DNA from: Pyrobaculum aerophilum str. IM2
Lineage (GTDB): Archaea; Thermoproteota; Thermoprotei; Thermoproteales; Thermoproteaceae
Direction: 5' to 3'
NCBI RefSeq assembly: GCF_000007225.1
Contig: NC_003364.1
Coordinates: forward strand, 510,001 to 542,000
DNA: 32,000 bases
In this document: positions 5,091 to 28,089 of the stretch, one piece after another
Layout: each line of letters begins with the position of its first letter
How positions within the stretch are numbered: the stretch's first letter is position 1
Made by a program: the position numbers and the translations under genes
The notes under the pieces: model-generated
Databases searched by the model: none
Told to the model about the DNA's origin: nothing
What the model saw: the letters and a program-made list of their open reading frames with translations, nothing else

Positions 5091-6035
5091 ATGGGTCCTG
5101 TGGAAATAAATAAATACACCCTTCTTCACGGGCTCAATGGAGGGGTTTATGAACTAGAGGAAAGGCTCTACTCCTTGTTAAACGAGAGGGCTAAGTTTAA
5201 CGTCCCCCCTCTTATAAACGGGGTCTTAGCGCCAATTATAGCCTCTGAGGTTTCCAAAAGGCATAAGCCGGTAGTAGCCTATCTAGGGCCTGAAAAGTCG
5301 TTTACATGGGAAGCGGCCGCCGCGTTGTTTCCGCAAGGGGATTTAATGCCGTGTAAATCAATATCCGAGGTATTCGACAAAGTGGAGAGCCGCGCGGCTG
5401 ATTACGGCGTAGTGCCTTTTATTAACAGCCTCGAGGGGCCGGTGGGGGAGACTATAGACATGCTCGCCACTCACAATTTAAACATTGTGACAATGGGAGA
5501 GATGCGAATTACTTTATGTATTGCGAAAAAGGGGGCGCCTAGAGTGATTTACACGCATCCCCACGCCGCGGCTCAAGCTAGAAGGGCAGTGGCGGCTTTA
5601 GGAGCCCATGTGGTGTATACGAACTCCACCTCCGAGGCTGTAAAGGAGTTTGAGAAGTGCGAAAGAGACTGCGCCGTGTTAGCCTCGCCCAAGGCTTTAG
5701 AAGCCGTGGAGAGGACATGCGGCGTAGAAGACGGGGAGAGTTACACGAGGTTTGCAGTAATATCGCGGGCCGGGAGGGAGTCCGGCGAGCGCGCCGTTTT
5801 GATCTTCGCAGTTCCCAACGTGGCAGGCGCGCTTTATAAAGCGCTGGGGCCGATAGCCAATAGGGGGATAAACATGACGCTTATATACTCGCGGCCAACG
5901 CGCCTATCGCCGTGGGATTACTACTTCGTCGTGGAGGTTGAAGCAGGTGAGGGGCTTGATGACGCTGTGGAGGAGATGAAGCGGTATACCACAATGCTAA
6001 AAGTGGCGGGCAGGTACAACGTAATTAGAATTTAA
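5091..6035 (+). CDS. pheA: Prephenate dehydratase with C-terminal ACT domain
   Basis: VAYLGPEKSFTWEAA, YGVVPFINSLEGPVGETID and TRFAVIS are followed by an ACT-like region, LIFAVPNVAGALYKALGPIANRGINMTLIYSRPT. Confidence 0.9.
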   Translation: MGPVEINKYTLLHGLNGGVYELEERLYSLLNERAKFNVPPLINGVLAPIIASEVSKRHKPVVAYLGPEKSFTWEAAAALFPQGDLMPCKSISEVFDKVESRAADYGVVPFINSLEGPVGETIDMLATHNLNIVTMGEMRITLCIAKKGAPRVIYTHPHAAAQARRAVAALGAHVVYTNSTSEAVKEFEKCERDCAVLASPKALEAVERTCGVEDGESYTRFAVISRAGRESGERAVLIFAVPNVAGALYKALGPIANRGINMTLIYSRPTRLSPWDYYFVVEVEAGEGLDDAVEEMKRYTTMLKVAGRYNVIRI

Positions 6036-10968: not shown

Positions 10969-11430
10969 GTGTCTATAGCTATCTCAGCGCCAGTAGCTGA
11001 GGCGTTGAGAAAGGCGGCAGGAGATAAGGATATTGAGGAGTTTCTAGTTGAGCTACTCTCAGCCAGGCTAGACCCCCCTGAGCGAGTTCAACTCTACCTC
11101 AAGCTACATGAGAAATACTTGAGAGAGGCGGAGGATCTCTACGCGAGAGGCGATCTCCTGCAAGCTGGGGAGAAGTACTGGGGGGCGGCGACTGCGTTGC
11201 TTAACGCTATTGCCGAGAGGCGGGGCTGGGAACATTACAGCCACCGGGACTACAACGTCATAATTAGAAGGCTTTACGAGGAGACTGGGGATAAAGAACT
11301 GGTAATTGGCTTCAGAATGGCGGAGGGCTTACACGCCAACTTCTACCACAACTACATGGGGCCTAAGGACTTCCAATTACACAGAGAGGCTGCACTCAAG
11401 CTGATAGAGAAGCTCAAATCACTTCTCTAA
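10969..11430 (+). CDS. PaREP1-family protein (HEPN-clan helical domain)
   Basis: HEKYLREAEDLYARGDLLQAGEKYWGAATALLNAIAERRGWEHYSH...GLHANFYHNYM matches my recollection of the Pyrobaculum PaREP1/PaREP8 family consensus. It contains an Rx4H string (RRGWEH). Confidence 0.65.
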   Translation: MSIAISAPVAEALRKAAGDKDIEEFLVELLSARLDPPERVQLYLKLHEKYLREAEDLYARGDLLQAGEKYWGAATALLNAIAERRGWEHYSHRDYNVIIRRLYEETGDKELVIGFRMAEGLHANFYHNYMGPKDFQLHREAALKLIEKLKSLL

Positions 11431-11738
11431 GCCGCCTTAAACAAGCCAGGCTAACTACAGAGCGAGAACGTAGCGGCGCTGTTGGAGACGGAATAACGGG
11501 AAGAGGGGCTTCACAATATACGTGAGACGCAAAATTGCGCTCAGGGCTATGCCGGCAACCCGTCGCCGCAAGTACACGCATGGCGCTGGATGAGGACGGC
11601 CTACTGGATTTCGGGTAGAGCCTAAATTCGCCTGCGGATTACCCCAGTCAGTTACTCAAGCGGAGGCTCAAGGCGCTGAGAAAAGGCAGAATTTTTCAAT
11701 ACACACGGCAAGGCCCAAGCTCGGAAGGTAAAACGCGT

Positions 11739-11756
11739 AAAATAAATATAGATAAA
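11739..11756 (+). promoter_or_regulatory. TATA-like box upstream of ORF 11769 and the HEPN-MNT pair
   Basis: aaaataaatatagataaa is centred about 22 nt upstream of GTG 11769, the spacing expected for a leaderless archaeal transcript. Confidence 0.4.
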
Positions 11757-11768
11757 GGATGGACACTC

Positions 11769-12077
11769 GTGACACTTCAGTCTCCTCTTCGGATAGAGAT
11801 CGCCGTCAGCAGAGGGAGGCGTACGCCTATGGCTGAGGGCGCGTCTGTGCGCCTAGCGGCTTACTTCGAAAAAGACGCGCTTGAGAAAGTCAGCTTCATA
11901 GAGGCAAGTGAAAGAGACGCCGTTTCCCTAAACGCCGTTGCTGAAAGGGCGGAGCGGAAATGCCGCAGTCCGCCCAGGAAAGCAATACAAACTGAGCTTC
12001 CGCTTAAATTTCCGCCAGAAATCCCCTGCCGAGACATCGTGAAAAAACTGGCGTCGCCGTACCAAGACCCAAGTTAA
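11769..12077 (+). CDS. Hypothetical 102-aa protein, or the untranslated 5' part of the HEPN-MNT transcript
   Basis: The GTG start sits at leaderless distance from a strong TATA-like box, and the stop lies immediately before the HEPN start codon (12079). I recognise no motif, so coding status is uncertain. Confidence 0.3.
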   Translation: MTLQSPLRIEIAVSRGRRTPMAEGASVRLAAYFEKDALEKVSFIEASERDAVSLNAVAERAERKCRSPPRKAIQTELPLKFPPEIPCRDIVKKLASPYQDPS

Positions 12078-12078
12078 T

Positions 12079-12456
12079 ATGGGCAGAGAAGAGGTGGAAA
12101 TATTGGGAGCCCGCCTATTTTTAGAAGTAGCTAGAGAAGACCTAAGGGCAGGCAGATACGACCTCGCGGCTTTTCACAGCGAGCAAGCCGCACAACTCGC
12201 GTTGAAATACCTGCTGGCCTCTACTATTGGCCACTATCCCCATACCCACTCTCTAGAAGTGTTATTTAAATTAGCTAAGGCCGTGAGAGAGGACGTTTGG
12301 AGGCTTTACGAGGAAAATAGAATGGCGTTTGAGGTAATGGAAGACGCCTATCTAGGCGGGAGGTACCTCCCCAGAAGATATGCAAAAGAGGTGGCGGAGC
12401 ACCTAGTGGAATTAGCCGGGAGAGTCGTAGAGCTATGTGCCTCCAGTACCTCCTAG
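12079..12456 (+). CDS. HEPN-domain protein, partner of the adjacent minimal nucleotidyltransferase
   Basis: AAFHSEQAAQLALKYLLASTIGHYPHTHSLEVLF and EDAYLGGRYLP are the two conserved HEPN blocks (A.e.alKa.l...G...ktH.L..L and Y..sRYp). It overlaps the downstream MNT gene by 22 nt. Confidence 0.8.
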   Translation: MGREEVEILGARLFLEVAREDLRAGRYDLAAFHSEQAAQLALKYLLASTIGHYPHTHSLEVLFKLAKAVREDVWRLYEENRMAFEVMEDAYLGGRYLPRRYAKEVAEHLVELAGRVVELCASSTS

Positions 12457-12773
12457 CAAGAAGGCGGGTGTTAGAAAACTGGCGGGAGTACGTAGAGGCG
12501 CTATGCGCCGTAGCAAAGGCCCTGTTGGGAAAGGCGCGGGTCATTGTATTTGGAAGCGTCGCCAGAGGGGACTGGGCTCCCGACAGCGATATAGACGTCC
12601 TCATTGTCTCGCCCAACGCCCCAGACGACCCCTGGAAGCGCGCCGAGATATCCCTGACGCTGAAAGACGCCGCCGGAGAGGCCTCCTCAGTCCTCGAGCT
12701 ACACATAGTGACTCCCCGGCAGTACGAGGACTGGTATAAAAAATTCATAGACGCCGAGGTGAAAATCTGTTAA
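12435..12773 (+). CDS. Minimal nucleotidyltransferase (MNT), Pol-beta superfamily
   Basis: VIVFGSVARGDWAPDSDIDVLIV is the hG[GS]x9-13DhDh signature. At 112 aa and overlapping the HEPN gene, it fits a HEPN-MNT toxin-antitoxin-type pair. Confidence 0.85.
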   Translation: MCLQYLLARRRVLENWREYVEALCAVAKALLGKARVIVFGSVARGDWAPDSDIDVLIVSPNAPDDPWKRAEISLTLKDAAGEASSVLELHIVTPRQYEDWYKKFIDAEVKIC

Positions 12774-12781
12774 CTCTGGGT

Positions 12782-12798
12782 AAAAGATATTTAAAAAA
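12782..12798 (+). promoter_or_regulatory. TATA-like box for the Trp-repeat gene
   Basis: aaaagatatttaaaaaa is centred about 23 nt upstream of GTG 12813. Confidence 0.4.
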
Positions 12799-12812
12799 GT
12801 CGGGGTGTATAC

Positions 12813-14048
12813 GTGGCGCTGACGCCAGAGGAGAAGCGCAAATTCCTCAAGGCGCTTGAAGAAGACGAAGAGTTCAGACTGGCAGTTGCCGGGGCCATAG
12901 GACTCGGAGAGGTGTTAAAAGAGCTGAGAGATTTAAGAGCCCAGTCGGAGAGATGGCAGAGGAGGTGGAATAGGACTTGGAAAGCCTTTCTCCAGGAAAA
13001 CAACAAAAGATGGGAGGAGAACGAGAGGCGGTGGTTAGAGTGGTATGAGAACTGGAGAAAATTCCTTGAGGAAAACAGTAAGAGGTGGGAAGAGAACGAA
13101 AGGCGGTGGCAAGAATGGTATAAGACTTGGAAACAATTCCTGGAGGAGAATAACAAGCGGTGGGAGGAGAACGAGCGCAAGTGGCGCGAGTGGTATGAGA
13201 ACTGGAAACAATTCTTAGAGGAGAACAACAGAAGATGGGAGGAAAATGAAAAACGGTGGCAAGAATGGTATAAGACTTGGAAAGAGTTCCTAGAGGAAAA
13301 CAACAAAAGGTGGGAGGAGAACGAGAAGAGGTGGCAGGATTGGTACGAAACGTGGAAGAGGTTTTTAGAAGAGAACAATAAGAGGTGGGAGGAAAATGAG
13401 AGGCGGTGGTTAGAGTGGTACGAGACATGGAAAAAATTCCTAGAAGATAACAGTAGGAGATGGGAGGAGAACGAGAGGAGATGGCGCGAGTGGTACGAGA
13501 CTTGGAGAAAATTTCTGGAGGAAAACAGCAAAAGGTGGGAGGAGAATGAAAAACGGCGGCTAGAATGGTACAAGACTTGGGCAGAATTCCAAGAGGACTA
13601 TAGGAAGAGGTGGGACGAGGCCAATAAGAAGTTCCAGTGGCTCATGTCGGCTCTGGAGGATATAAGAGACGCCCTCGGCGGCGGGTTTGAGTACTACACA
13701 GCTAGAGTAGTAGAGGCGTTGCTTAAAGAAAGGGGAGTTGAATGCTCCGTGCGAGTAAACGTCGCACTTCCGGTAGACGGCTTCAAGGAAGTCGACATCT
13801 TCTGCCCACAGCCGCTGGTAGTGGGAGAGGTGTCCGTGGCCGTGAGAACGGCGGAGGAGGCAGAGGGGCTTATAGAACAGCTCAGGAGGTCAGTACAAGC
13901 CGCCGAGAAGCTCACTGGGTCAAAGACGTATGTGAAAGTGCTGGCCGTAGAGTTCGCCTCACAAGAGGCGGCAGAGCGGCTGAAAAAGCTGGCTGAGGAA
14001 GAAGGGGCGCTTTTAATACTAGGCAGAGAGTACCCCCGCCCGTACTGA
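12813..14048 (+). CDS. Trp-rich 25-residue tandem-repeat protein with a C-terminal restriction-endonuclease-like (PD-(D/E)xK-like) domain
   Basis: The 411-aa ORF has 36 Trp, counted from the translation. The core is eight full and two degenerate copies of FLEENNKRWEENERRWxEWYxTWKx. The N-terminus is LTPEEKRKFLKALEEDEEFRLAVAGAIGL. The C-terminal roughly 130 aa (FKEVDIF...VVGEVSVAV...KVLAVEF...GALLILG) has the strand pattern of a nuclease-fold domain, with Ser at the Lys position. Confidence 0.85.
   Translation: MALTPEEKRKFLKALEEDEEFRLAVAGAIGLGEVLKELRDLRAQSERWQRRWNRTWKAFLQENNKRWEENERRWLEWYENWRKFLEENSKRWEENERRWQEWYKTWKQFLEENNKRWEENERKWREWYENWKQFLEENNRRWEENEKRWQEWYKTWKEFLEENNKRWEENEKRWQDWYETWKRFLEENNKRWEENERRWLEWYETWKKFLEDNSRRWEENERRWREWYETWRKFLEENSKRWEENEKRRLEWYKTWAEFQEDYRKRWDEANKKFQWLMSALEDIRDALGGGFEYYTARVVEALLKERGVECSVRVNVALPVDGFKEVDIFCPQPLVVGEVSVAVRTAEEAEGLIEQLRRSVQAAEKLTGSKTYVKVLAVEFASQEAAERLKKLAEEEGALLILGREYPRPY
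12987..13586 (+). repeat. Eight in-frame 75-bp tandem repeats (25-aa units), flanked by degenerate units at about 12912-12986 and 13587-13661
   Basis: Unit boundaries (the TTY codon of FLEEN) fall at 12987, 13062, 13137, 13212, 13287, 13362, 13437 and 13512. The copies differ mainly at synonymous or conservative sites; for example WEENE is encoded as tgggaggagaacgag, tgggaagagaacgaa and tgggaggaaaatgaa. Confidence 0.95.
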
Positions 14049-14745: not shown

Positions 14746-15168
14746 ATGCCAACCAAATTAAAAGGAATGACAAGCCTAGAAATCGCAATAATAGTGGCAA
14801 TAGTGTTAGTAATCGCAATAGCAGTAGGCTGGTACCTATACACCACATTTGCATCGGCTGGACAACAAGCATCGCTAACAGTTGTAACCGGTAATATTAC
14901 AAAAAAGACATCTAGCATTACGCTTTACCTTAGAGTTATACCTCAAGGCGGAGCATCGGTGCAAATTCAAGCTATTGAAATTGCTGGCAAATCAATAACA
15001 GCCATAAAGGTAAATAATGAGACTACTAATATAGTTACTGGTCCAGCATGGGTAACTGCAGATCTTACCAAACAAGTTGATGTGGCTGTTGGCCAAGTGC
15101 TTACTGGAAGGGTTGTACTTAGCAACGGAGCCGTAGCACCTTTCACTGTTTCAGTCTTAGCTGGATAA
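14746..15168 (+). CDS. Type IV pilin-like protein with a class III (prepilin-type) signal peptide
   Basis: The N-terminus MPTKLKG/MTSLEIAIIVAIVLVIAIAVGWYLY has a basic leader ending in KG, Glu at +5 of the predicted mature end, and a 20-residue hydrophobic helix. A beta-rich, Cys-free domain of about 100 aa follows (ITLYLRVIPQGGASVQIQAIEIAG). The gene has clearly lower GC than its flanks. Confidence 0.75.
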   Translation: MPTKLKGMTSLEIAIIVAIVLVIAIAVGWYLYTTFASAGQQASLTVVTGNITKKTSSITLYLRVIPQGGASVQIQAIEIAGKSITAIKVNNETTNIVTGPAWVTADLTKQVDVAVGQVLTGRVVLSNGAVAPFTVSVLAG

Positions 15169-15826: not shown

Positions 15827-16857
15827 ATGGCGGTTTGGAAAAAAAGTAATATGTGGAGTTGCGGTGATAGTACTATTTTTGACATCGTCATATTCGGTAG
15901 GGTTTAAGTTTCTAGACGAGGAAGTGTACATAAGGGCTGGCGCCCAGCAGTGGTCTGGGGTTCCCCCGGCATTAACAATTAATCCCGAGCATCCCCCGCT
16001 GGCCAAGTACATTATAGGCGTTGAGCCCCGCCTTGCCCCTTTATTTGCGGGAATAGCGGTTGTGTTTCTGGCGGGGTGGCTTGGCCGCTTATTGGGCAGG
16101 AGTTTTTGGCTTGTGGCTTTTAGCGTGGCCAGCGATATAGTGTTTACGGCTACTTCCCGTTTTGCGATGTTAGACGTGTTTGTCGCTTTGTTTTCTGTAT
16201 CGGCGGTTTTGTCCTACTTGCTGGGCAGGTAGTGGCTCGCCGGCGTCTTGTGGGGCGCGGCGCTTGCTTCAAAATTCACAGCCGTCTTCCCCCTGTTGGG
16301 ATTCACTGCATATCTTGCCTATAAGGACAGAGGGGCGCTGGGGCCCACGGCCGCGGGCGCCGCGCTTGCCTTTTTGGTGTCTCACGCCGTGGATATTGCC
16401 AACGGGGTCTTCCTATATCACTTTCAATTCTACTGGTGGCTTGTGTCTTTTCACAGCCATAAAAACCCGTTTGAGGGGTGGCTGATTCTTTTCACAGGGG
16501 CGCCGTGGTATGTGTACTATGCCAATCTTGTACAACGGATCTGAGGTGGTAACGGCGGTCTCCAAGCCAGGCGTATATGACGTGTTGAAGTACGAGCTTC
16601 GCATCTCCGCGGCTCCGTGGCTGGGGCATTTAGTATGGAGGGCCGTACCTGTGGAGATTATAAGAGGCCTTGTGGGAGGAGGCGCGGGACTGGGCTGGTT
16701 TCTCGCGGCGTCTTCTGCGCTAGTGGCACAGGCGGGCTGGTTTTATTGGTATTTCGCCGGCGTGGCGCTTTTCTTCCATTTATATACTCGCCGGCTTTTC
16801 GTGGCGTTGCAAATAGTCTTTATCGTCGCGCTGTATTTAGGCATGCCCCAATGTTGA
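15827..16857 (+). pseudogene. GT39/PMT-ArnT-type (phospholipid-carrier-dependent) glycosyltransferase, disrupted
   Basis: FLDEEVYIRAG...INPEHPPLAKYIIG is the DE..Y plus HPPLxKY loop-1 signature of the PMT/ArnT family. It is followed by multi-TM sequence. There is an in-frame TAG at 16230-16232, after which the sequence continues WLAGVLWGAALASKFTAVFPLLG. A frame change falls between about 16500 and 16545. The N-terminal TM helix is only joined to ATG 15827 if the A7 run at 15839-15845 is read as A6. Confidence 0.6.
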
Positions 16858-16939: not shown

Positions 16940-19723
16940 ATGAGGCTTTGGCTTGTGGCCGTACTGGTGGCGGCATCGGCGTTGGCGTACGTCCTCCCCA
17001 CTGAGTCTCTAGATGTGTTTTACTGGGCCACTCCCAGCGCTGTGAAAATTGTGGGACTGGATGGGAGGGTGCTGTGGACTCAGCAGGCAGTTTATCCCCT
17101 AATTGCGACTGACCGCACAGGCAGGTGTTTGGCGATTGCTAACAGGCTGTATATATACGACATTTCAGTTAATATATTCGTCGTGGAAAGGAGCTTGTTC
17201 ACTACTGTGGAGTTATCTCCTCAATTAGTAGAAACGTTGGCCCAGTATGGCATTAGATTGCCCCAGGAAATTCCTGTGGTGTTGAACTTGTCGTTGCCGT
17301 TGCCTCCCGTAATTCTCGCATCTGTGTATAAAACGACGGTGGTCTCTCTCCACACGCCTTACGGCTACCCCCACTGGGCTATTAACCTTGGCCCACGGGC
17401 AAATGTAACTGCCATAGCCACTAATTGTGAATATGTAGTTGCTGCGACTATATTCGGCGAGGTGTATGTAGTTAGAGACGGCAGAATTGTAGATCAATTT
17501 TTTATAGATCCCCTAGGCGCCGTGCCCAGAGCCGCCATGAATAGACAGCCCCTAGATCCGCCGATTACGGCTCTCACGATAATTAACAATACAGTATACG
17601 TGGGGACTTTAACAGGCGATATATACCGCTTTAAATTGCCGACTGAGGCGGAACTCCGATCGGGCAGATTTGACAGGGGCTTTACCAGACTGGGCTCATG
17701 CGGAGGCCCTGTTTATGGCTTATATACAAATCCGACGGGAGATCCCATAGCCCTCTGTTTTGTCAAGAGGGAGAGGCCATACGTGGTAATATATCCGTAC
17801 GGCTTGACTTTCGCTGATCCCGTCTTGATCACATACGGCATTGACACTCCCCGCCTTGTGTCTGCAGTTAGTCAAGACGGGCGTTGGGTATTTGTCGCAG
17901 TGAATAACGAGATTATAGGAATTAGAGACGGAAGAGTCGCCCTCAAATTGCGAACCCCCGCAACTCCCAGCGCAATTGCCTCGTCTTGGAACGGCTCTGT
18001 CGTAGCAGTGGGCACGCTCGCAGGCCACTTCTACTTATTTAAAGACGGAATTCCTACAGTCAGGACGGATCCCATTTCTACTCAGCTTTTGTTGAGAGCT
18101 GTGAGGGGCAACGCCACTGGCAACTTTACTATAAGAGAGGCGTTAATAAGCGTCAAGCCCGTTACGTCAGTCGCAGTTTCTTTTGACGGCCAAGTGGCGG
18201 CTTTAGAGTATTGGGACAGCGTCTACGTGTTATACACCGCGAGGCTTCCATACGTCGTAGATGCGCCGAGTGACTGCCTGCCTCTAGAGGCGGCAGTGGT
18301 CGCTGCTGGCTCAAAGATTACTTATATATATACGCTGAATAAAAGCGGAGTCCTCTACGTGCCTTATGGAGAAGTGGTCATATATCCGTTGTATCGATAT
18401 CTGGGAGATGTGAGGTGTAAACCTGAGCGGAACTTCACTCTAACTATATTCGGCGACGTGGCAGAGCCGTTAGTGTTTAGATACTTTAAACAGTTCAGAG
18501 TATATAGGCAGCCCGCAGAGCTGGTAAGCGGTCCCGACTGGGCCTCCGGGCCTACTCGCTTCTCTGCCGCACTTACGCCGAGTATACAAGTACAAGTCAG
18601 CATCGAGACTATTCCGGCTCTCGCCGATAGGCTGGCCAGACTACAGAGCCTTGTCCTGGGGAGGATTAGAGCCGTTATAGACTCGTGGGAAGTTGACGGC
18701 AAGAGGACTGGCGCCGGATTCAGCTTTATAACAGTGGACGTACAAAAGCCCACTGTTGTGAAGGCTGTGTACAGAGTAGAGGCTCCTGACACAGTATCTG
18801 AGGATGAGTACGGCATAAACCTCGTGGACATAGTGGTGTACGACTCTTTTGGAAATATCATCGACGTAGGGCGTAGGCCGCTGTTCAGCGTCTATCCAGT
18901 GGTTGTAGTTGCCAGGTATACTCCTTCATTTCTCGTGACGGCAGGGAGGGGGGCTACAGTAAATGGCACAGACCAACTCTGGGCTGAGTATCAGTCAGTA
19001 GTAGTGTTTCGTGCAACACCCGTTATAGAATACGGCAATGGAACGCGTGAAGTGTTTGCTAAGTGGCTGGAAACAGGCGAGACGAGCCCGGAGATTAAGC
19101 TCACAGTAACCGGACCCGTCAAGAGAACCCCTGTATATGTAAAGCAGTACTTAGTGAGCGCCTCCCCGCCGGCTAGATTTGAGGGCGTCGCGGGAAACGC
19201 CACTTGGGTTGAGGCGGGAAAGTCCGTGAGGGTATCTATCCCTGCAGTGTTAGCAGAGCAAGGTAGCGTGAGAACTGCCTTTAAGAACTGGGTTGTAAAC
19301 GGCATTCCAAACGCCACGTTAAATAATCCGGTACAAGATTTCGTCGTTAAAGCCCCCCTAAATATCACTTATCAAGTCAAGAGGCAGTATTTAGTGATTC
19401 TGACGTCGCGCTTCGGCGTAGTCCCGCAGAGCATGTGGGTTGACGAGGGGAGCACAGTGGCCGTTGTGCCTAATCCAACTAGCGTGTGGTCGCCGCCTCC
19501 TCTACACTACGTATTTGTCGGCTGGAGGGATGTTTCCACAGGCGTTGTTTATTCATATCCGCAGTTGCCAGTTGCCTACGGCCCCATGACACTAGAGGCC
19601 GTGTGGGCTATAGATCCCATTCCGCTGGTGCTTATCGCCGGCGCCGCCGCGGGCGCGGTTGCGTTAATATGGTTCTTAAGGCGGAGGAGGCTGGCCCGGC
19701 TGATGGCCGAGGTGGCGGAGTAG
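16940..19723 (+). CDS. Large secreted, C-terminally membrane-anchored surface protein: beta-propeller-like N-terminal half plus three B-repeat-like modules
   Basis: The Sec-type signal is MRLWLVAVLVAASALA/YV. Propeller-blade-like strings recur (VVAATIFGEVYVVRDG, VYVGTLTGDIYRF, VFVAVNNEIIGIRDG, VVAVGTLAGHFYLFKDG, QVAALEYWDSVYVLY). Three units of about 75 aa follow with the pattern Y/FLV...G...W.E.G..V...F..W. The C-terminal TM helix is IPLVLIAGAAAGAVALIWFL, followed by RRRRLAR. NxS/T sequons are numerous. Confidence 0.8.
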   Translation: MRLWLVAVLVAASALAYVLPTESLDVFYWATPSAVKIVGLDGRVLWTQQAVYPLIATDRTGRCLAIANRLYIYDISVNIFVVERSLFTTVELSPQLVETLAQYGIRLPQEIPVVLNLSLPLPPVILASVYKTTVVSLHTPYGYPHWAINLGPRANVTAIATNCEYVVAATIFGEVYVVRDGRIVDQFFIDPLGAVPRAAMNRQPLDPPITALTIINNTVYVGTLTGDIYRFKLPTEAELRSGRFDRGFTRLGSCGGPVYGLYTNPTGDPIALCFVKRERPYVVIYPYGLTFADPVLITYGIDTPRLVSAVSQDGRWVFVAVNNEIIGIRDGRVALKLRTPATPSAIASSWNGSVVAVGTLAGHFYLFKDGIPTVRTDPISTQLLLRAVRGNATGNFTIREALISVKPVTSVAVSFDGQVAALEYWDSVYVLYTARLPYVVDAPSDCLPLEAAVVAAGSKITYIYTLNKSGVLYVPYGEVVIYPLYRYLGDVRCKPERNFTLTIFGDVAEPLVFRYFKQFRVYRQPAELVSGPDWASGPTRFSAALTPSIQVQVSIETIPALADRLARLQSLVLGRIRAVIDSWEVDGKRTGAGFSFITVDVQKPTVVKAVYRVEAPDTVSEDEYGINLVDIVVYDSFGNIIDVGRRPLFSVYPVVVVARYTPSFLVTAGRGATVNGTDQLWAEYQSVVVFRATPVIEYGNGTREVFAKWLETGETSPEIKLTVTGPVKRTPVYVKQYLVSASPPARFEGVAGNATWVEAGKSVRVSIPAVLAEQGSVRTAFKNWVVNGIPNATLNNPVQDFVVKAPLNITYQVKRQYLVILTSRFGVVPQSMWVDEGSTVAVVPNPTSVWSPPPLHYVFVGWRDVSTGVVYSYPQLPVAYGPMTLEAVWAIDPIPLVLIAGAAAGAVALIWFLRRRRLARLMAEVAE

Positions 19724-25956: not shown

Positions 25957-26549
25957 CTTAATTCTATAACAACGGGAATTACAACGACAGTGGAGGTATC
26001 TCCAGTATTAAAATTACATTGATCCGCTGAGTATGTCTTTGGTGAGTACACTGCGTAGTAAATGCCCACGCCTAGGGCTCCCTGGGAGGCTGTGTATGTA
26101 ATATTTAACACTACGGCTATATTGCCATATCTGACTATGCGCGGGGCCAGCGACACGGAAGTCCCCCACCCGTTTATTGCAATGGGAGGCTCCGGAGCGT
26201 CTACAAGGCTCCTCCACCTAGTTCCTCTGTAGAGTCCGAAGAGAGATAAATATGGTGATTTATATGTAAGCGTTGTGTTATAAACAGGGGCTCCGTTGCA
26301 CTGGCCCAATGTGGTAGTGGAGTAGGTCAATTCTCCAAATCTCAGTTGGGGCATATTCACAATTTTCTGCGCATAAGCAGCGCCCATGTCCGATTCAATA
26401 GAATCGGCAAGTACATTCAGAAAAGCCACAGCGGCCCTCGCCTCTGCTAATGCCTGGTATTGGTAAATTTGCCACATTATGGCTGGCACCGCGGCAAATA
26501 TGGCGATGAGGACAAAGGCGGTTAGTATCAGTGTTTCCAGGGACGTCAT
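25953..26549 (-). CDS. Pilin-like operon, gene 4: 198-aa protein starting directly with MTSLE plus a hydrophobic helix
   Basis: MTSLETLILTAFVLIAIFAAV begins with the same five residues as the predicted mature end of the 14746 pilin. The protein has 2 Cys and several NxT sequons. There is an ATGA overlap at 26546-26549. The in-frame upstream sequence hits TAG seven codons before the ATG. Confidence 0.7.
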   Translation of the reverse strand: MTSLETLILTAFVLIAIFAAVPAIMWQIYQYQALAEARAAVAFLNVLADSIESDMGAAYAQKIVNMPQLRFGELTYSTTTLGQCNGAPVYNTTLTYKSPYLSLFGLYRGTRWRSLVDAPEPPIAINGWGTSVSLAPRIVRYGNIAVVLNITYTASQGALGVGIYYAVYSPKTYSADQCNFNTGDTSTVVVIPVVIELR

Positions 26550-27727
26550 GGGTACAGCCAGTTGAGTCTATTGGCGGCCAAGGCGTTATTTAGCGCCTGG
26601 GGGCAATTCGTGAGGTTAAGCCAGCCGCGGGGGTGGACAATCCAGTAAGTAGTTGAGGGCGTTTTTAACACGGTGACGTTGTGGGAGGCTTGATATTTAA
26701 CATAGGCCCCTGTAGTGTTGTATAACACTACAGGGGCCGCATTTCTAGTGTTGTCAATAGAACACCACCCATTACCCACCCTATAGACGCCGCAACCACT
26801 ACTACACCCGCTGTCGTATATGCCGGGCTTTGGCGTGTCTCGGGGCGGTATGTACAGGGGTATGTTTCCCACATAAACCTTTATTACATACTCCCCAGCT
26901 ATATTGTTAATCTTATACACAGCGCTGTACTCAGTATAATTCACAAGGTCGAAATCTGCGCGGCCTAGGCTGTAACCAATGGCGTCGCTGGTAAAAGATC
27001 TGGAGAGTACGTAAAAGTCCGCGGCCCAGGCATACGGCCTAGATACTGTAATATTAATGCATTGAACCGTTGCGGGACAGTAGTTATCTATGCCGAGCAC
27101 TCTGACTAGCACTCTAAACTCCTTAGTTGCATTGAGGTTAGATAGTGCAAGGAGCGAGACGTCCACAATTACAGAGACGCGGTAGCCAGCTTCATAGGTC
27201 TTGTTGGGGAGGACTACCGTGAACTTATTTGCTTGTAGCAGAGCCCCTTGATTTATAAAAAACACGCCTTGGCTAGTTGACGTGCCATTGGGAGGCTTAG
27301 AGATCCACACTGCTACTGCAGTTCTGTCACCCCTTGCGGCAATGGTTTTGCAACCTGACAGAGACCCCGGAATCTCCGCGTTTAGGCCTAGCGCCGCTCT
27401 GTTTAATACAAAAAACTGCATTGCCTTGTTCACCGCCGCCGAGGTTTTAACGACTTGAGGCCCCTGACAATAACTACTTGACGTAGTTAGCAGCAGAGCA
27501 TACAGTGCCACGTTTTCTGTGTAATTCAACAGCGCGACGAGGCCTATGTAGTCTACATACGATGTAATAACCTCCACCGCCTTTGAGACGTCTCTTGAGA
27601 ATACTCCATACGCGGCTCTGACGCCTCCAAAACCGGGCGATGAAGATGACACTGACTGGAGTATTAAAACTACGGTAATGGCTACTGCGATTATAACTGC
27701 AGTTAATAGAATTACCTGGCCCCTCAT
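26546..27727 (-). CDS. Pilin-like operon, gene 3: 393-aa protein with an MRG/Q class III-type N-terminus
   Basis: MRGQVILLTAVIIAVAITVVLILQ is followed by an ectodomain with 8 Cys and many sequons (NYT, NGT, NKT, NAT, NIT, NTT, NVT, NLT). I chose the start at ATG 27727 because it forms an ATGA overlap with the upstream stop. The ORF-track start at 27814 would overlap the upstream gene by 91 nt. Confidence 0.7.
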   Translation of the reverse strand: MRGQVILLTAVIIAVAITVVLILQSVSSSSPGFGGVRAAYGVFSRDVSKAVEVITSYVDYIGLVALLNYTENVALYALLLTTSSSYCQGPQVVKTSAAVNKAMQFFVLNRAALGLNAEIPGSLSGCKTIAARGDRTAVAVWISKPPNGTSTSQGVFFINQGALLQANKFTVVLPNKTYEAGYRVSVIVDVSLLALSNLNATKEFRVLVRVLGIDNYCPATVQCINITVSRPYAWAADFYVLSRSFTSDAIGYSLGRADFDLVNYTEYSAVYKINNIAGEYVIKVYVGNIPLYIPPRDTPKPGIYDSGCSSGCGVYRVGNGWCSIDNTRNAAPVVLYNTTGAYVKYQASHNVTVLKTPSTTYWIVHPRGWLNLTNCPQALNNALAANRLNWLYP

Positions 27728-28089
27728 GCCCACACCGCTATACATACTGTCGTTCCGTTGGGCAAAACTGTTGCCAGCGATATTGCAATTCGCGGAGAGG
27801 GCGGCGTAGTGCACACGCCATTAGTGGGCAGATAGACGTCAACAGAGGCTAAGGGATCTATAAGCGCCGCCTCCCTCCTCGCCTGCGCCACTGCTTCCTC
27901 CCAGCTATACTGTAGCCGGAAAAGGAACTCCGGGCTAGCCGCCAACCTCACTGCAAATGCCGACAGCTCAGAAACCCTCCCTCTTTCCCCCGCCTGTACT
28001 GCTATAGACGCCGGGGCCGTGTAGTTATACAGAGCGATGGTTAGAATGAGAATAAAAGCGGCGAAGGAGAGCTCAAGAACCCACCTCAT
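27724..28089 (-). CDS. Pilin-like operon, gene 2: 121-aa protein with an N-terminal hydrophobic helix
   Basis: MRWVLELSFAAFILILTIALY is followed by an ectodomain with 2 Cys. There is an ATGA overlap at 28086-28089. Confidence 0.65.
   Translation of the reverse strand: MRWVLELSFAAFILILTIALYNYTAPASIAVQAGERGRVSELSAFAVRLAASPEFLFRLQYSWEEAVAQARREAALIDPLASVDVYLPTNGVCTTPPSPRIAISLATVLPNGTTVCIAVWA

What the first reader, a model, noticed from the sequence alone, without database searches (positions are those of the whole stretch)
12813..14048. Tryptophan-ladder protein: ten 25-residue W-rich repeats (36 Trp in 411 aa) fused to a nuclease-fold-like C-terminal domain
The consensus unit is FLEENNKRWEENERRWxEWYxTWKx, with Trp at unit positions 9, 16, 19 and 23. 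Along the array the main Trp positions are spaced 7, 7, 11, 7, 7, 11 residues apart. That gives 25 residues per roughly 7 helical turns (3.57 residues per turn). If the array is helical, the Trp residues, together with F1 and Y20, line up as one continuous aromatic stripe along a highly charged helix more than 200 residues long. Asn recurs at intervening core-like positions. The copies differ mostly at synonymous or conservative codons, so the array is old and under purifying selection rather than a recent slippage product. Trp is normally the rarest residue, and I know of no characterised repeat family with this composition. The flanks resemble archaeal proteins that pair a coiled-coil spacer with a PD-(D/E)xK-like domain (EVDIF...VVGEVSVAV, with Ser at the Lys position). 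The gene sits directly after a HEPN-MNT pair. A role in nucleic-acid or glycan binding, or as a defence-associated sensor or ruler, is speculation.
Basis: partly seen in the sequence, partly recalled or inferred. Interest (0 to 1): 0.7.

Follow-up and report, generated by a model that had tools for sequence, protein, structure and literature searches.

The report
Tryptophan-core coiled-coil stalk on nuclease-fold protein
This is a real gene of a hot-spring archaeon: a very long, rod-like helical stalk whose core is built from tryptophan and asparagine, ending in a domain shaped like a DNA-cutting enzyme. It is the most extreme sampled member of an uncharacterised family (PaREP7), and its interest is mainly for protein-structure research.

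Summary
ORF 12813-14048 (+) encodes 411 aa with 36 Trp (about 6 expected, P~5e-18). It holds eight clean 25-residue units plus two degenerate ones. The hydrophobic periodicity is exactly 25/7 = 3.57. Synonymous sites between units are saturated while dN is about 0.1.

The protein is not an orphan. It belongs to the PaREP7 family of Thermoproteota and is probably PAE0906 of Pyrobaculum aerophilum. The family has three modules: a conserved ~45-aa N-terminal head (EDEEFRLAVAG), a repetitive stalk of very variable length and type, and a C-terminal restriction-endonuclease-fold domain.

Trp occupies heptad position a and Asn position d (RWEENxK), and distant relatives use L/F/I/M instead. The "ladder" is therefore most likely the buried core of a parallel homo-oligomeric coiled coil (I favour a trimer), not an exposed binding stripe.

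[quoted passage not shown] Its best fold matches are the Cdn1 and Card1 CRISPR nucleases. E293, D328 and E339 are conserved, but the motif Lys is Ser/Thr.

HEPN-MNT adjacency is real but not conserved, and no partner gene exists. Coiled coil plus PD-(D/E)xK was already described for sister families. What I found undescribed is the Trp/Asn core and the 8-unit array, the largest sampled. Function is untested.

The parts
12788..12795 (+). TATA-box-like TATTTAAA, 25 nt before the GTG start. It implies the gene has its own promoter and a leaderless or near-leaderless mRNA.
   Evidence: Sequence read. The in-frame stop TAA at 12792 bounds the ORF. The link to leaderless transcription in Pyrobaculum rests on general knowledge, not on a test here.
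12813..14048 (+). Complete CDS, 411 aa: a PaREP7-family protein, probably PAE0906 of Pyrobaculum aerophilum.
   Evidence: The locus-tag order in the tables of PMC3388794 (PAE0885, PAE0893, PAE0906) matches the window gene order. The PAE0906 identity is inferred, not confirmed by exact look-up.
12813..12941 (+). N-terminal head (aa 1-43) with the family signature L..LEEDEEFRLAVAG.(I/L)GLGEVL. It is predicted as two short helices (5-17, 19-28) leading into the stalk helix.
   Evidence: Found in 114 of 120 homologues. Invariant residues are L12, L15, D18, E20, F21, R22, A24, V25, G30. 253 genome loci were found with this motif. PADLOC model C3a181 matches aa 10-107 at E 7.6e-12.
12942..12986 (+). 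Degenerate leading partial unit (aa 44-58, QSERWQRRWNRTWKA) with W48/W52/W56 spaced 4 and 4.
12987..13586 (+). Eight 75-nt / 25-aa units (aa 59-258), consensus FLEENNKRWEENERRWxEWYxTWKx. My register is W9 a, N12 d, W16 a, W19 d, Y20 e, W23 a, F1 d, L2 e, N5 h, i.e. heptad + heptad + hendecad.
   Evidence: TRF; unit table; periodicity 3.57; dN/dS; helical in AF2.
13587..13661 (+). Ninth, degenerate unit (aa 259-283, FQEDYRKRWDEANKKFQWLMSALED). The core positions are kept as F/W/A/F/L/M/L, which carries the stalk register into helix alpha-1 of the C-terminal domain.
   Evidence: AF2 shows a continuous helix 178-287, a break at G288-G290, then helix 292-306.
13605..14045 (+). [quoted passage not shown]
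   Evidence: AF2 with a 34-sequence alignment gives pLDDT 93.2 and pTM 0.80. Foldseek against PDB: Cdn1 9u49_A E 3.7e-3, TM 0.58, prob 1.0; also Card1, ERCC1, XPF and BsoBI. In BFVD the named matches are restriction endonuclease, PD-(D/E)XK, Cas4 and HJ resolvase. 224 representative clusters carry the domain, and where the hit is full-length (>=200 aa) it lies at or near the C-terminus.
13689..13691 (+). E293, candidate motif I Glu in helix alpha-1 (GGGFEYYTA).
   Evidence: E in 33/34 aligned homologues.
13794..13796 (+). D328, candidate motif II Asp in strand beta-2 (KEVDIFC). E326 next to it is invariant.
   Evidence: D in 33/34 and E326 in 34/34. hhalign puts it on the D of the EVD motif of PDDEXK_10-type relatives.
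13827..13835 (+). E339-V-S341, motif III (D/E)xK position in strand beta-3, with Ser in place of Lys.
   Evidence: E in 34/34. Position 341 is T in 23, S in 8 and K in 3.
12079..12773 (+). Upstream HEPN (12079-12456) and MNT nucleotidyltransferase (12435-12773) pair. This is context; linkage to the PaREP7 gene is loose.
   Evidence: Pfam HEPN 5e-27 and NTP_transf_2 1e-13. The same pair lies in the same MCM-flanked block as the orthologue in L081 (Pyrobaculum sp. 3827-6), but there it is separated from the orthologue by two other genes. In other loci the pair is seldom adjacent.
10969..11430 (+). PaREP1 (HEPN-clade) gene 1.4 kb upstream. This is context.
   Evidence: Pfam PaREP1 1.5e-29. PaREP1 lies within 1.5 kb of close homologues in T. 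tenax, T. uzoniensis and P. calidifontis. The association of PaREP1/8 with MNT and REase (DUF1626) genes is noted in PMC3710099.

Best explanation
The gene encodes a three-module PaREP7-family protein.

(1) Head. A ~45-residue conserved N-terminal head opens the protein.

(2) Stalk. An uninterrupted alpha-helical stalk of about 250 residues (up to ~38 nm if fully extended) follows. The 25-residue unit is two heptads plus one hendecad, or equivalently three heptads plus a 4-residue stutter. This gives 3.57 residues per turn and a weakly left-handed supercoil, about one turn over the whole array. Trp, Phe, Leu, Tyr and Asn occupy the a/d/e/h seam and are buried between the chains of a parallel, in-register homo-oligomer. 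I favour a trimer because Asn at position d is the hallmark of trimeric stalks and a sister clade forms trimer-only beta-layers. The b, c and f positions carry Glu/Arg/Lys, and R8-E13 can form a g-e' type ion pair.

(3) C-terminal domain. A restriction-endonuclease-fold domain continues directly from the stalk through helix alpha-1. It keeps an acidic cluster (E293, D328, E339, plus E326 and D322) suited to divalent-metal binding. It has Ser/Thr where the canonical Lys sits. It is most likely a metal-dependent nuclease, or at least a nucleic-acid-binding module.

The stalk presents several copies of the C-terminal domain at one end and the heads at the other. The gene stands alone under its own promoter, in variable gene neighbourhoods enriched for HEPN/MNT/PaREP1 and orphan ATPases. 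That suggests a role in genome conflict or DNA transactions.

Shown here: gene reality, repeat anatomy, periodicity, purifying selection, family membership, modular architecture, and the predicted fold with conserved acidic residues. Inferred: burial of the Trp residues, parallel orientation, oligomer number, catalytic activity, and biological role.
For: - Anatomy and statistics.
- Family: 267 homologues, many named PaREP7. The head motif is in 114/120 of them and in 253 genome loci across Thermoproteota.
- Heptad rule across 197 homologues: R at W-1 in 62%, N at W+3 in 51%, W at W+7 in 64%.
- Distant relatives keep the architecture but use L/F/I/M cores and other repeat lengths.
- Core positions are invariant in 8/8 units, while b/c/f positions vary.
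- AF2 full length: helices 31-170 and 178-287, mean pLDDT 84.5.
- Fold matches: Cdn1, Card1, ERCC1, XPF and BsoBI in PDB; named PD-(D/E)XK, Cas4 and HJ-resolvase proteins in BFVD.
- Conserved residues: E293, D328, E339, E326.
[quoted passage not shown] Crenarchaeal PD-(D/E)XK endonucleases with N-terminal coiled-coil stalks containing nonads, which form beta-layers, are described in PMC4786415. N at position d is typical of trimeric autotransporter stalks (PMC13580157).
- Own promoter.
- Syntenic orthologue with a shorter stalk.
Against: - No experiment exists on any family member. No solved structure matches by sequence.
- No Pfam PD-(D/E)xK model reaches threshold. hhalign probabilities to the PDDEXK_10-type and EVK-type relatives are only 3.7% and 12.7%.
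- The canonical Lys is absent (S341). In this protein the commonest basic residue of the following helix (K356 in 24/34) is Gln, so the domain might be inactive.
- The oligomeric state could not be modelled. The only full-length model is a monomer that folds back on itself at aa 165-179.
- PD-(D/E)xK enzymes are usually dimers, which argues against a trimer.
- No conserved gene partner or CRISPR/defence context defines a function.
Confidence: 0.62

Rival explanations
1. Exposed tryptophan ladder. The array is a stable single alpha-helix (ER/K-like) and its aromatic stripe is solvent-exposed. It binds nucleic acid bases or glycans by stacking.
For: The array is 51% charged (E/R/K), resembling single-alpha-helix domains. 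Trp, Tyr and Phe are classic stacking residues. The C-terminal domain has a nuclease fold, so a nucleic-acid ligand is plausible.
Against: The aromatic and Asn residues follow a strict a/d/e/h seam with 3.57 periodicity. True single alpha-helices lack such a seam. Relatives with the same architecture replace Trp with L/F/I/M, which is expected for a core but not for a stacking surface. Asn at d and Arg at g/k with Glu at e are coiled-coil features. The AF2 monomer buries the stripe by folding back.
Confidence: 0.1
2. Intramolecular antiparallel hairpin (SMC/Rad50-like). The stalk folds back at its middle, so the N-terminal head docks next to the C-terminal nuclease-fold domain and the apex acts as a hinge.
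For: The full-length AF2 monomer shows two long helices (31-170 and 178-287) joined by a break at 165-179.
Against: The break lies inside a perfect repeat unit and has pLDDT below 50. There is no hinge, Gly/Pro or CxxC sequence at that point. Monomer predictions of homo-oligomeric coiled coils commonly fold back in this way. Antiparallel pairing would put Arg opposite Arg (g-g') and Glu opposite Glu (e-e'). Homologues with only 4-6 heptads could not form such a hairpin.
Confidence: 0.08
3. Catalytically dead scaffold. The C-terminal domain keeps the nuclease fold but has lost activity, like the ERCC1 central domain or FAAP24. The protein would then be a structural or adaptor fibre that only binds nucleic acid or partner proteins.
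For: The motif III Lys is Ser/Thr in 31/34 sequences. Position 356 is Gln in this protein. ERCC1 and FAAP24, which are inactive nuclease-like domains, appear among the fold matches. No Pfam nuclease model reaches threshold.
Against: E293, D328 and E339 are invariant or nearly so, and E326 and D322 are conserved too. Dead domains usually lose such acidic residues. In DUF1626 the same Lys-to-Thr change was interpreted as migration of the Lys to the next helix (PMC1913061). R345, R358, R359 and K366 are available here.
Confidence: 0.25
4. SPOR-domain protein, as NCBI names the partial copy P0001. The C-terminal region would bind peptidoglycan-like glycans.
For: Pfam SPOR scores 22.2 bits against a cut-off of 21 at aa 343-393. 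The NCBI name is shown.
Against: [quoted passage not shown] Homologues score below the cut-off (13.9 and 17.3 bits). No SPOR structures appear among the fold matches. Crenarchaea have no peptidoglycan (general knowledge).
Confidence: 0.02

Closest known systems
PaREP7 family of Thermoproteales (e.g. TUZN_0114, T. tenax, P. neutrophilum and P. calidifontis proteins named PaREP7)
   Same: It has full-length homology to these proteins: the same head, the same W-heptad stalk and the same C-terminal domain (E 1e-60 to 1e-106). The syntenic orthologue is in Pyrobaculum sp. 3827-6.
   Different: This copy has the longest stalk and the most Trp of all sampled members: 36 Trp in 411 aa, against at most 28 Trp in the others, whose full-length PaREP7-type members run 226-372 aa. 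It is also the only one with a regular 8-fold 25-residue super-repeat; others have at most 3 such units.
DUF3782 + PDDEXK_10 (DUF1626, PF07788) coiled-coil endonucleases of Crenarchaeota (Knizewski 2007; Hartmann 2016), which is also type III CRISPR accessory cluster C3a181 (Shah 2018)
   Same: They share the N-terminal head and W-heptad stalk (P0107, P0110; PADLOC C3a181 matches aa 10-107 at E 7.6e-12). [quoted passage not shown] The motif Lys is often Thr (PMC1913061).
   Different: The C-terminal domain is a different family. There is no PF07788 or PF12644 hit, and hhalign probability is only 3.7%. There is no A-T-K beta-layer motif. No cas genes lie in the window.
Nuclease domains of the CARF effectors Cdn1 (9u49, 8z4i) and Card1 (6xl1)
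   Same: These are the best structural matches to the C-terminal domain model: TM 0.58-0.59 over about 125 columns, rmsd 3.0-3.2 A, Foldseek probability 1.0.
   Different: Identity is only 16-21%. There is no CARF sensor domain. The E-values (3.7e-3 to 5.7e-2) indicate fold-level similarity, not family-level similarity.
[quoted passage not shown]
   Same: Both have long repetitive stalks with Asn recurring at heptad position d (PMC13580157). Here N12 is invariant in 8/8 units, and N follows W by +3 in 51% of the family's stalk Trp.
   Different: Position a is Trp rather than Ile/Val. This protein is cytoplasmic and archaeal, with no membrane anchor. Trimer state and anion binding are untested here.
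Designed tryptophan-zipper pentamer (PDB 1T8Z, Liu et al. 2004)
   Same: It is a coiled coil with Trp in core positions (cited in PMC4619341).
   Different: In the design, Trp fills all a and d positions. Here the seam is W, N, W, W, W, F, N per 25 residues. This sequence is natural, with a 7/7/11 periodicity, and shows no sequence similarity to any PDB chain.
HsdS specificity subunits of type I restriction enzymes (coiled-coil spacer with variable tandem repeats)
   Same: By analogy only, from my own knowledge: in HsdS a coiled-coil spacer whose repeat number varies sets a distance within a nucleic-acid enzyme complex.
   Different: There is no sequence or fold relation, and no target-recognition domains here. 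This was not tested.

Membership tests
PaREP7 family (Thermoproteota) | Significant full-length similarity to proteins annotated PaREP7 | tested here: met
   P0044, P0048, P0052 and P0061 (all named PaREP7) at E 3.8e-75 to 4.8e-63; 267 hits in all.
PaREP7 family (Thermoproteota) | Conserved N-terminal head motif (L..L.EDEEFR[LY]AVAG) | tested here: met
   present at aa 12-27; invariant residues D18, E20, F21, R22, A24, V25.
PaREP7 family (Thermoproteota) | C-terminal ~145-aa domain with GGGFEYYTA ... EVD.FC..PLVVGE motif | tested here: met
   phmmer scores of 125-305 bits against about 90 of 120 hits, and 3 more at 50-84 bits; 64% mean column identity.
PaREP7 family (Thermoproteota) | Match to Pfam PF26618 (precomputed on homologues P0004, P0047, P0049, P0063 and others) | not testable with these tools
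   PF26618 did not appear when P0004 and P0049, which carry a precomputed PF26618 hit, were scanned against the local Pfam copy. I take the model to be absent from that copy; the window protein therefore has no hit to it.
PD-(D/E)xK restriction-endonuclease-like superfamily | [quoted passage not shown] | tested here: met
   Tested on a predicted model only: AF2 pLDDT 93.2 with topology H-E-E-E-H-E-H-E. Fold matches are to Cdn1, Card1, ERCC1, XPF and BsoBI and to viral PD-(D/E)XK, Cas4 and resolvase proteins.
PD-(D/E)xK restriction-endonuclease-like superfamily | Motif I Glu in helix alpha-1 and motif II Asp in strand beta-2 | tested here: met
   E293 in 33/34 and D328 in 33/34.
PD-(D/E)xK restriction-endonuclease-like superfamily | Motif III (D/E)-x-K in strand beta-3 | tested here: not met
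   E339 is invariant, but the Lys position is S341 (T 23, S 8, K 3 of 34). The same deviation is reported for DUF1626 (PMC1913061).
PD-(D/E)xK restriction-endonuclease-like superfamily | Significant sequence or profile match to an established PD-(D/E)xK family | tested here: inconclusive
   Only sub-threshold PDDEXK_3 hits on homologues (E 0.03-0.06). hhalign to PDDEXK_10-type and EVK-type relatives gives E 0.012 and 0.0023, probability 3.7% and 12.7%, with motifs in register.
PD-(D/E)xK restriction-endonuclease-like superfamily | Metal-dependent phosphodiesterase activity | not testable with these tools
   Needs biochemistry.
DUF3782 / PDDEXK_10 (DUF1626) coiled-coil endonucleases; C3a181 | Pfam PF07788 and PF12644 matches | tested here: not met
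   No hit at E<=1, whereas P0107 scores 1e-25 and 1.1e-22.
DUF3782 / PDDEXK_10 (DUF1626) coiled-coil endonucleases; C3a181 | Shared N-terminal head and stalk | tested here: met
   PADLOC PDLC01085 (C3a181) matches aa 10-107 at E 7.6e-12. The head is aligned with P0107, P0110 and P0118.
DUF3782 / PDDEXK_10 (DUF1626) coiled-coil endonucleases; C3a181 | Nonad beta-layer motif [aliphatic]-A-T-K-[polar]-[DE] in the stalk | tested here: not met
   No ATK in the protein. The motif definition is from PMC4786415.
DUF3782 / PDDEXK_10 (DUF1626) coiled-coil endonucleases; C3a181 | Neighbourhood of type III CRISPR-cas genes | tested here: not met
   No cas domains among the 24 window ORFs scanned. C3a181 itself rests on only 3 members (PMC6546367).
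SPOR domain (PF05036) | Score above the Pfam gathering threshold | tested here: met
   22.2 bits against 21, at aa 343-393. This is borderline; homologues score 13.9 and 17.3 bits.
SPOR domain (PF05036) | Autonomous SPOR fold | tested here: not met
   The matched stretch is alpha-2, beta-4 and alpha-3 of the larger nuclease-fold domain. No SPOR structures appear among the fold matches.
Trimeric N@d coiled coils | Asn recurrent at heptad position d | tested here: met
   N12 in 8/8 units. W to N spacing is +3 and N to W is +4.
Trimeric N@d coiled coils | Trimeric state and anion coordination by Asn layers | not testable with these tools
   No multimer prediction or experiment was available.
Single alpha-helix (ER/K) domains | High E/K/R content without a hydrophobic seam | tested here: not met
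   The array is 51% charged, but it has a strict hydrophobic seam with 3.57 periodicity.

The most novel reading that the evidence does not exclude
The RWEENxK / 25-residue stalk may be a natural coiled coil of a kind not yet seen in any structure. Its core would be built almost entirely of Trp (a) and Asn (d) layers, with a 7/7/11 periodicity. It might be a trimer with ion-binding Asn layers sandwiched between Trp triads, or a higher-order Trp zipper. Its rapidly changing length between orthologues (261 vs 411 aa) might tune the distance between an N-terminal head that binds a target and a cluster of nuclease-fold domains. That would make it a length-variable 'reach' element of an uncharacterised archaeal conflict or DNA-processing system linked to HEPN/MNT/PaREP1 genes.
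Probability: 0.25. Interest if true: 0.7.

Novelty: new variant of a known kind. Interest (0 to 1): 0.45.

Why it matters
For coiled-coil structural biology, this would be a natural, hyperthermophilic, ~250-residue stalk whose seam is Trp/Asn/Phe rather than Leu/Ile/Val, with a rare 25/7 periodicity. I found no solved structure or paper describing such a core. It could extend the known rules for core packing, for polar N@d layers and for oligomer-state selection. It would also be an attractive, spectroscopically rich design scaffold.

For archaeal biology, the PaREP7 / DUF1626-like proteins form a widespread, multi-copy, fast-evolving family: 253 genome loci share the head motif, and 224 clusters at 50% identity carry this C-terminal domain. 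They carry nuclease-fold domains and have no known function. The extreme member here highlights stalk length as the fastest-changing feature of the family. The practical impact is limited until activity and oligomer state are measured.

Tried and rejected
- The genome scan with the C-terminal alignment failed because it has no sufficiently conserved 7-10 column stretch. I used the N-terminal head alignment instead.
- PDB sequence searches with the C-terminal profile, the head profile, the PDDEXK_10-type profile and the array itself gave nothing significant.
- NCBIfam and PHROGs gave no meaningful hits.
- The viral contig scan found no relatives, so a viral origin was dropped.
- Rfam found no RNA family in the window.
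- An exact look-up of the 411-aa protein, with V or M as first residue, found nothing in the 15-billion-protein collection. The PAE0906 identity therefore rests on locus-tag order only.
- I looked for a conserved partner gene by clustering all ORFs within 2.5 kb of 74 family loci. The best clusters were an ABC ATPase and MNT, each in only 7 loci. Iterated HEPN/MNT/PaREP1 profile searches gave the same picture. The idea of an obligatory HEPN-MNT-PaREP7 operon was therefore rejected.
- The 'Diadenylate cyclase' label of PADLOC model C3a181 was traced to a 3-member cluster in Shah et al. 2018. I do not regard it as informative.
- The long antisense ORFs across the array were rejected as genes. 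They are S/L/F-rich mirror images of the repeat.
Full report
**Observation.** The ORF at 12813-14048 (+) is real and exactly as described: GTG start, 411 aa, 36 Trp, 82 Glu, 48 Arg, 36 Lys. The other twenty large ORFs of the window contain 1.38% Trp. Only 5.7 Trp are therefore expected, and P(>=36) is about 5e-18. Tandem Repeats Finder finds a 75-nt period with 8.1 copies, 75% matches and no indels.

In protein register there are eight clean 25-residue units (aa 59-258). They are preceded by a degenerate partial unit (aa 44-58). They are followed by a degenerate ninth unit (aa 259-283) in which F, L, M and L replace the Trp positions. 'Ten repeats' is thus slightly generous. Twelve of the 25 positions are invariant in all eight units: F1, L2, N5, R8, W9, E10, E11, N12, E13, W19, Y20 and W23. 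W16 is present in 7 of 8. Variation is concentrated at positions I assign to b, c and f.

The power spectrum of hydrophobic residues peaks at 3.57 residues, which is 25/7. The units are 76% identical in both DNA and protein. Differences fall 109/106/292 on codon positions 1/2/3. dN is 0.07-0.22, while dS is saturated in 26 of 28 comparisons.

**Gene reality and identity.** The start codon is supported by orthologues that begin M-G-L-T-P-E-E-K-R-R-F-L. An in-frame TAA lies at 12792, and a TATA-like TATTTAAA lies at 12788-12795, 25 nt upstream. The gene therefore appears to have its own promoter rather than being the third cistron of the HEPN-MNT pair.

The window is from Pyrobaculum aerophilum. 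A partial protein from that species (P0001, 263 aa) is essentially identical over its whole length. The tables of Bernick et al. 2012 list PAE0885 as carboxypeptidase Taq, PAE0893 as prephenate dehydratase and PAE0906 as 'paREP7'. The window carries these genes in that order at 72-1001, 5091-6035 and 12813-14048. The gene is therefore very probably PAE0906. This is an inference, because the exact sequence was not found in the protein collection.

**Family.** A search of 5.8 billion proteins returned 267 relatives. Many are named PaREP7, from Pyrobaculum, Thermoproteus, Vulcanisaeta, Caldivirga, Infirmifilum and Ignisphaera. All share three modules.

- *Head.* A conserved N-terminal head (…L..L.EDEEFR[LY]AVAGLLGL…) is present in 114 of 120 hits. 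Using this motif I found 253 loci in genomes across Thermoproteota, often several per genome. They include Thermoproteales, Desulfurococcales, Sulfolobales, Thermofilales, Bathyarchaeia, Korarchaeia and Caldarchaeales.
- *Stalk.* A repetitive helical stalk varies enormously in length and repeat type. Examples are RWEENxK heptads, LWExQNR heptads, 14-mers such as LLEHDKRFEAIERK, 18-mers such as KLREDMNKGFARHDEE, and others.
- *C-terminal domain.* At least four kinds occur: the window type; Pfam PDDEXK_10 preceded by DUF3782 (P0107, P0110); a VDxDLL…VVEVK type (P0093, P0104); and an EIDLYG…VIGEA type. The PDDEXK_10 and EVK types are homologous to each other (hhalign probability 96%). The window type aligns to both with the catalytic motifs in register, but with weak statistics (probability 3.7% and 12.7%).

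An exhaustive HMM search of 1.84 billion representatives found 224 clusters with the window-type domain. Where the hit is full-length (>=200 aa), the domain lies at or near the C-terminus behind a coiled-coil region.

**What the tryptophan ladder is.** Across 197 distinct homologues there are 1376 stalk Trp. Arg precedes Trp in 62% of cases. Asn follows at +3 in 51%. The next Trp follows at +7 in 64%. Since a to d is +3 and d to a is +4, Trp occupies heptad position a and Asn position d.

The window protein's 25-residue unit is one such heptad (W9 a, N12 d), then a second heptad (W16 a, W19 d, Y20 e), then a hendecad (W23 a, F1 d, L2 e, N5 h). In other words it is three heptads plus a four-residue stutter.

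With 3.571 residues per turn the supercoil stays left-handed but relaxes to about 221 residues (~330 A) per turn, against ~98 residues for pure heptads. The whole array would therefore make roughly one supercoil turn (computed with the standard 3.63 residues per turn for an undistorted helix).

Several observations indicate that the stripe is a buried seam and not a ligand-binding surface:
- Its positions are the most conserved in the unit.
- They are occupied by L/F/I/M in more distant relatives with the same architecture.
- R8 and E13 can form the g-e' type ion pair of parallel coiled coils.
- The AF2 monomer, having no partner chains, folds the helix back on itself at an arbitrary, low-confidence point inside a perfect repeat (aa 165-179, pLDDT below 50) so as to bury the stripe.

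The array is predicted helical throughout: helices 31-170 and 178-287, with pLDDT mostly 85-94.

**Oligomer state (inferred).** Asn at position d is characteristic of trimeric stalks such as those of trimeric autotransporter adhesins (PMC13580157, citing Hartmann 2009). Hartmann et al. 2016 report that the crenarchaeal PD-(D/E)XK endonucleases with DUF3782 stalks contain nonads (PMC4786415). Nonads form beta-layers, which to my knowledge occur only in trimers. This sister clade shares the head and W-heptads with the window protein.

I therefore favour a parallel trimer (about 0.5), over a dimer (about 0.25, which would suit a PD-(D/E)xK active dimer) or a higher-order bundle (about 0.15). The higher-order option has a precedent in the designed Trp-zipper pentamer 1T8Z. 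None of this could be modelled, because no multimer prediction was available.

**C-terminal domain.** AF2 with a 34-sequence alignment gives pLDDT 93.2 and pTM 0.80. [quoted passage not shown]

Foldseek against PDB ranks the type III CRISPR ancillary nucleases first: Cdn1 (9u49_A, E 3.7e-3, TM 0.58, rmsd 3.2 A, probability 1.0; 8z4i_B), and Card1 (6xl1_A) seventh. Further down the list, among unrelated folds, come the ERCC1 central domain, BsoBI, XPF-ERCC1 and FAAP24. In the viral library the named matches are restriction endonuclease, PD-(D/E)XK, Cas4, Holliday-junction resolvase and DUF559 proteins. E-values are modest, so this is fold-level evidence.

Conservation fits an active-site reading:
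- E293 (helix alpha-1): 33/34
- D322: 31/34
- E326: 34/34
- D328 (strand beta-2): 33/34
- E339 (strand beta-3): 34/34

The canonical Lys two residues after E339 is Thr (23), Ser (8) or Lys (3); it is S341 here. Knizewski et al. [quoted passage not shown] In the window protein the commonest basic residue of that helix (K356, 24/34) is Gln, but R345, R358, R359 and K366 are nearby. Activity is plausible but unproven. An inactive, ERCC1-like binding domain remains a serious rival.

The NCBI label 'SPOR domain-containing' for P0001 comes from a borderline Pfam hit (22.2 vs 21 bits, aa 343-393). That hit falls on alpha-2, beta-4 and alpha-3 of the nuclease fold, and I regard it as spurious.

**Genomic context.** The window is mostly housekeeping: M32 carboxypeptidase, Thg1, prephenate dehydratase, a DEAD-box/archaeal helicase, MCM, a radical-SAM enzyme, SufBD and TiaS. 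Between MCM and a conserved 927-aa gene lies a small variable island. It holds PaREP1 (10969-11430), HEPN (12079-12456), MNT (12435-12773) and the PaREP7 gene.

The same block exists in Pyrobaculum sp. 3827-6. Amino-acid identities there are MCM 97%, HEPN 75%, MNT 77% and the 927-aa protein 72%. The PaREP7 orthologue P0007 is only 57-68% identical and 261 aa long. The stalk is thus the fastest-changing part. The length difference of 150 aa equals six 25-residue units, which may be coincidence.

In eight close homologues and 74 wider loci no partner gene is conserved. MNT occurs within 2.5 kb in 7 of 74 loci, and an ABC ATPase also in 7. PaREP1 is near four close homologues. Orphan AAA_14/DUF4143 or ATPase_2 genes are near three. 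Two loci are purely housekeeping.

Anantharaman et al. [quoted passage not shown] The PDDEXK_10-type relatives were listed as a 3-member type III CRISPR accessory cluster, C3a181. There are no cas genes in this window. The context suggests, but does not establish, a conflict-system or mobile-island role. No relatives were found in viral contigs.

**Comparison with what is known, and novelty.** The gene is an annotated member (paREP7) of a known but uncharacterised family. The architecture 'coiled-coil stalk plus PD-(D/E)xK domain' has been described bioinformatically for sister families.

I could not find the following described anywhere:
- the Trp-at-a / Asn-at-d heptad as the dominant stalk repeat of this family;
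- the 7/7/11 super-repeat;
- this extreme case, with eight regular units, 36 Trp and 411 aa. The maxima elsewhere in my sample are three such units and 28 Trp, and other full-length PaREP7-type members run 226-372 aa.

I classify it as a new variant of a known kind. It is of moderate interest, chiefly to coiled-coil structural biology and to those studying archaeal nuclease-fold families of unknown function.

**Limits.**
- I had no access to model coordinates to inspect active-site geometry.
- There are no expression data for this gene.
- All functional statements are inferences.

Noticed in passing
window 14746-15168 (+): A 140-aa ORF with an N-terminal hydrophobic segment (MPTKLKGMTSLEIAIIVAIVLVIAIAVGWYLY) that looks like an archaeal pilin-type signal. 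It has no Pfam hit and no BLASTP match to the 145-aa gene at the equivalent position in the syntenic locus L081.
   Followed up: partly
window 15864-16857 (+): Four short overlapping ORFs lie here. The first hits the PMT dolichyl-phosphate-mannose glycosyltransferase family (E 1.9e-5). This looks like a frameshifted or decayed gene.
   Followed up: partly
window 16940-19723 (+): A 927-aa ORF with no Pfam match. It is conserved (72% identity over the 476 residues available) in Pyrobaculum sp. 3827-6 (L081).
   Followed up: partly
window 26546-27814 (-) and 28086-29681 (-): Two large ORFs (421 and 530 aa) with no Pfam family at E<=0.001.
   Followed up: no
window 12791-13573 (-) and 12874-13428 (-): Long antisense ORFs (260 and 184 aa) run across the repeat array and encode S/L/F-rich repeats. 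They are by-products of a purine-rich, stop-poor repeat, not genes.
   Followed up: yes
window 12813-12941 (aa 12-31): The head motif DEEFRLAVAGLLGL weakly resembles the repeat unit D.EVRLAIAGRLG of the leucine-rich-repeat-variant protein 1lrv (E 0.037). This is not significant and may be chance.
   Followed up: partly
L081 2728-3537 (+): In the syntenic Pyrobaculum sp. 3827-6 locus, a 269-aa membrane-anchored protein with 11-residue repeats (KIEAxxAELxx) sits between the MNT gene and the PaREP7 orthologue. It is absent from the window.
   Followed up: partly
L041 6016-6504, L044 5911-6558, L018 5992-6243: These are decayed or truncated family copies: a frameshifted window-type copy in P. oguniense, a copy in L044 (Thermoproteus sp. 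MAG) whose C-terminal domain is disrupted after VDVDLL, and an 83-aa stub. They suggest rapid turnover of paralogues.
   Followed up: partly
window 11431-12078: A ~650-bp stretch between PaREP1 and HEPN holds only a 102-aa GTG ORF (11769-12077) with no Pfam hit. Whether it is coding is unclear.
   Followed up: no
window 12813-14048 vs L081 5001-5786: The length difference between the window protein (411 aa) and its syntenic orthologue (261 aa) is exactly 150 aa, i.e. six 25-residue units. The orthologue's stalk is built from mixed 7- and 18-residue blocks, not a regular 25-mer.
   Followed up: partly
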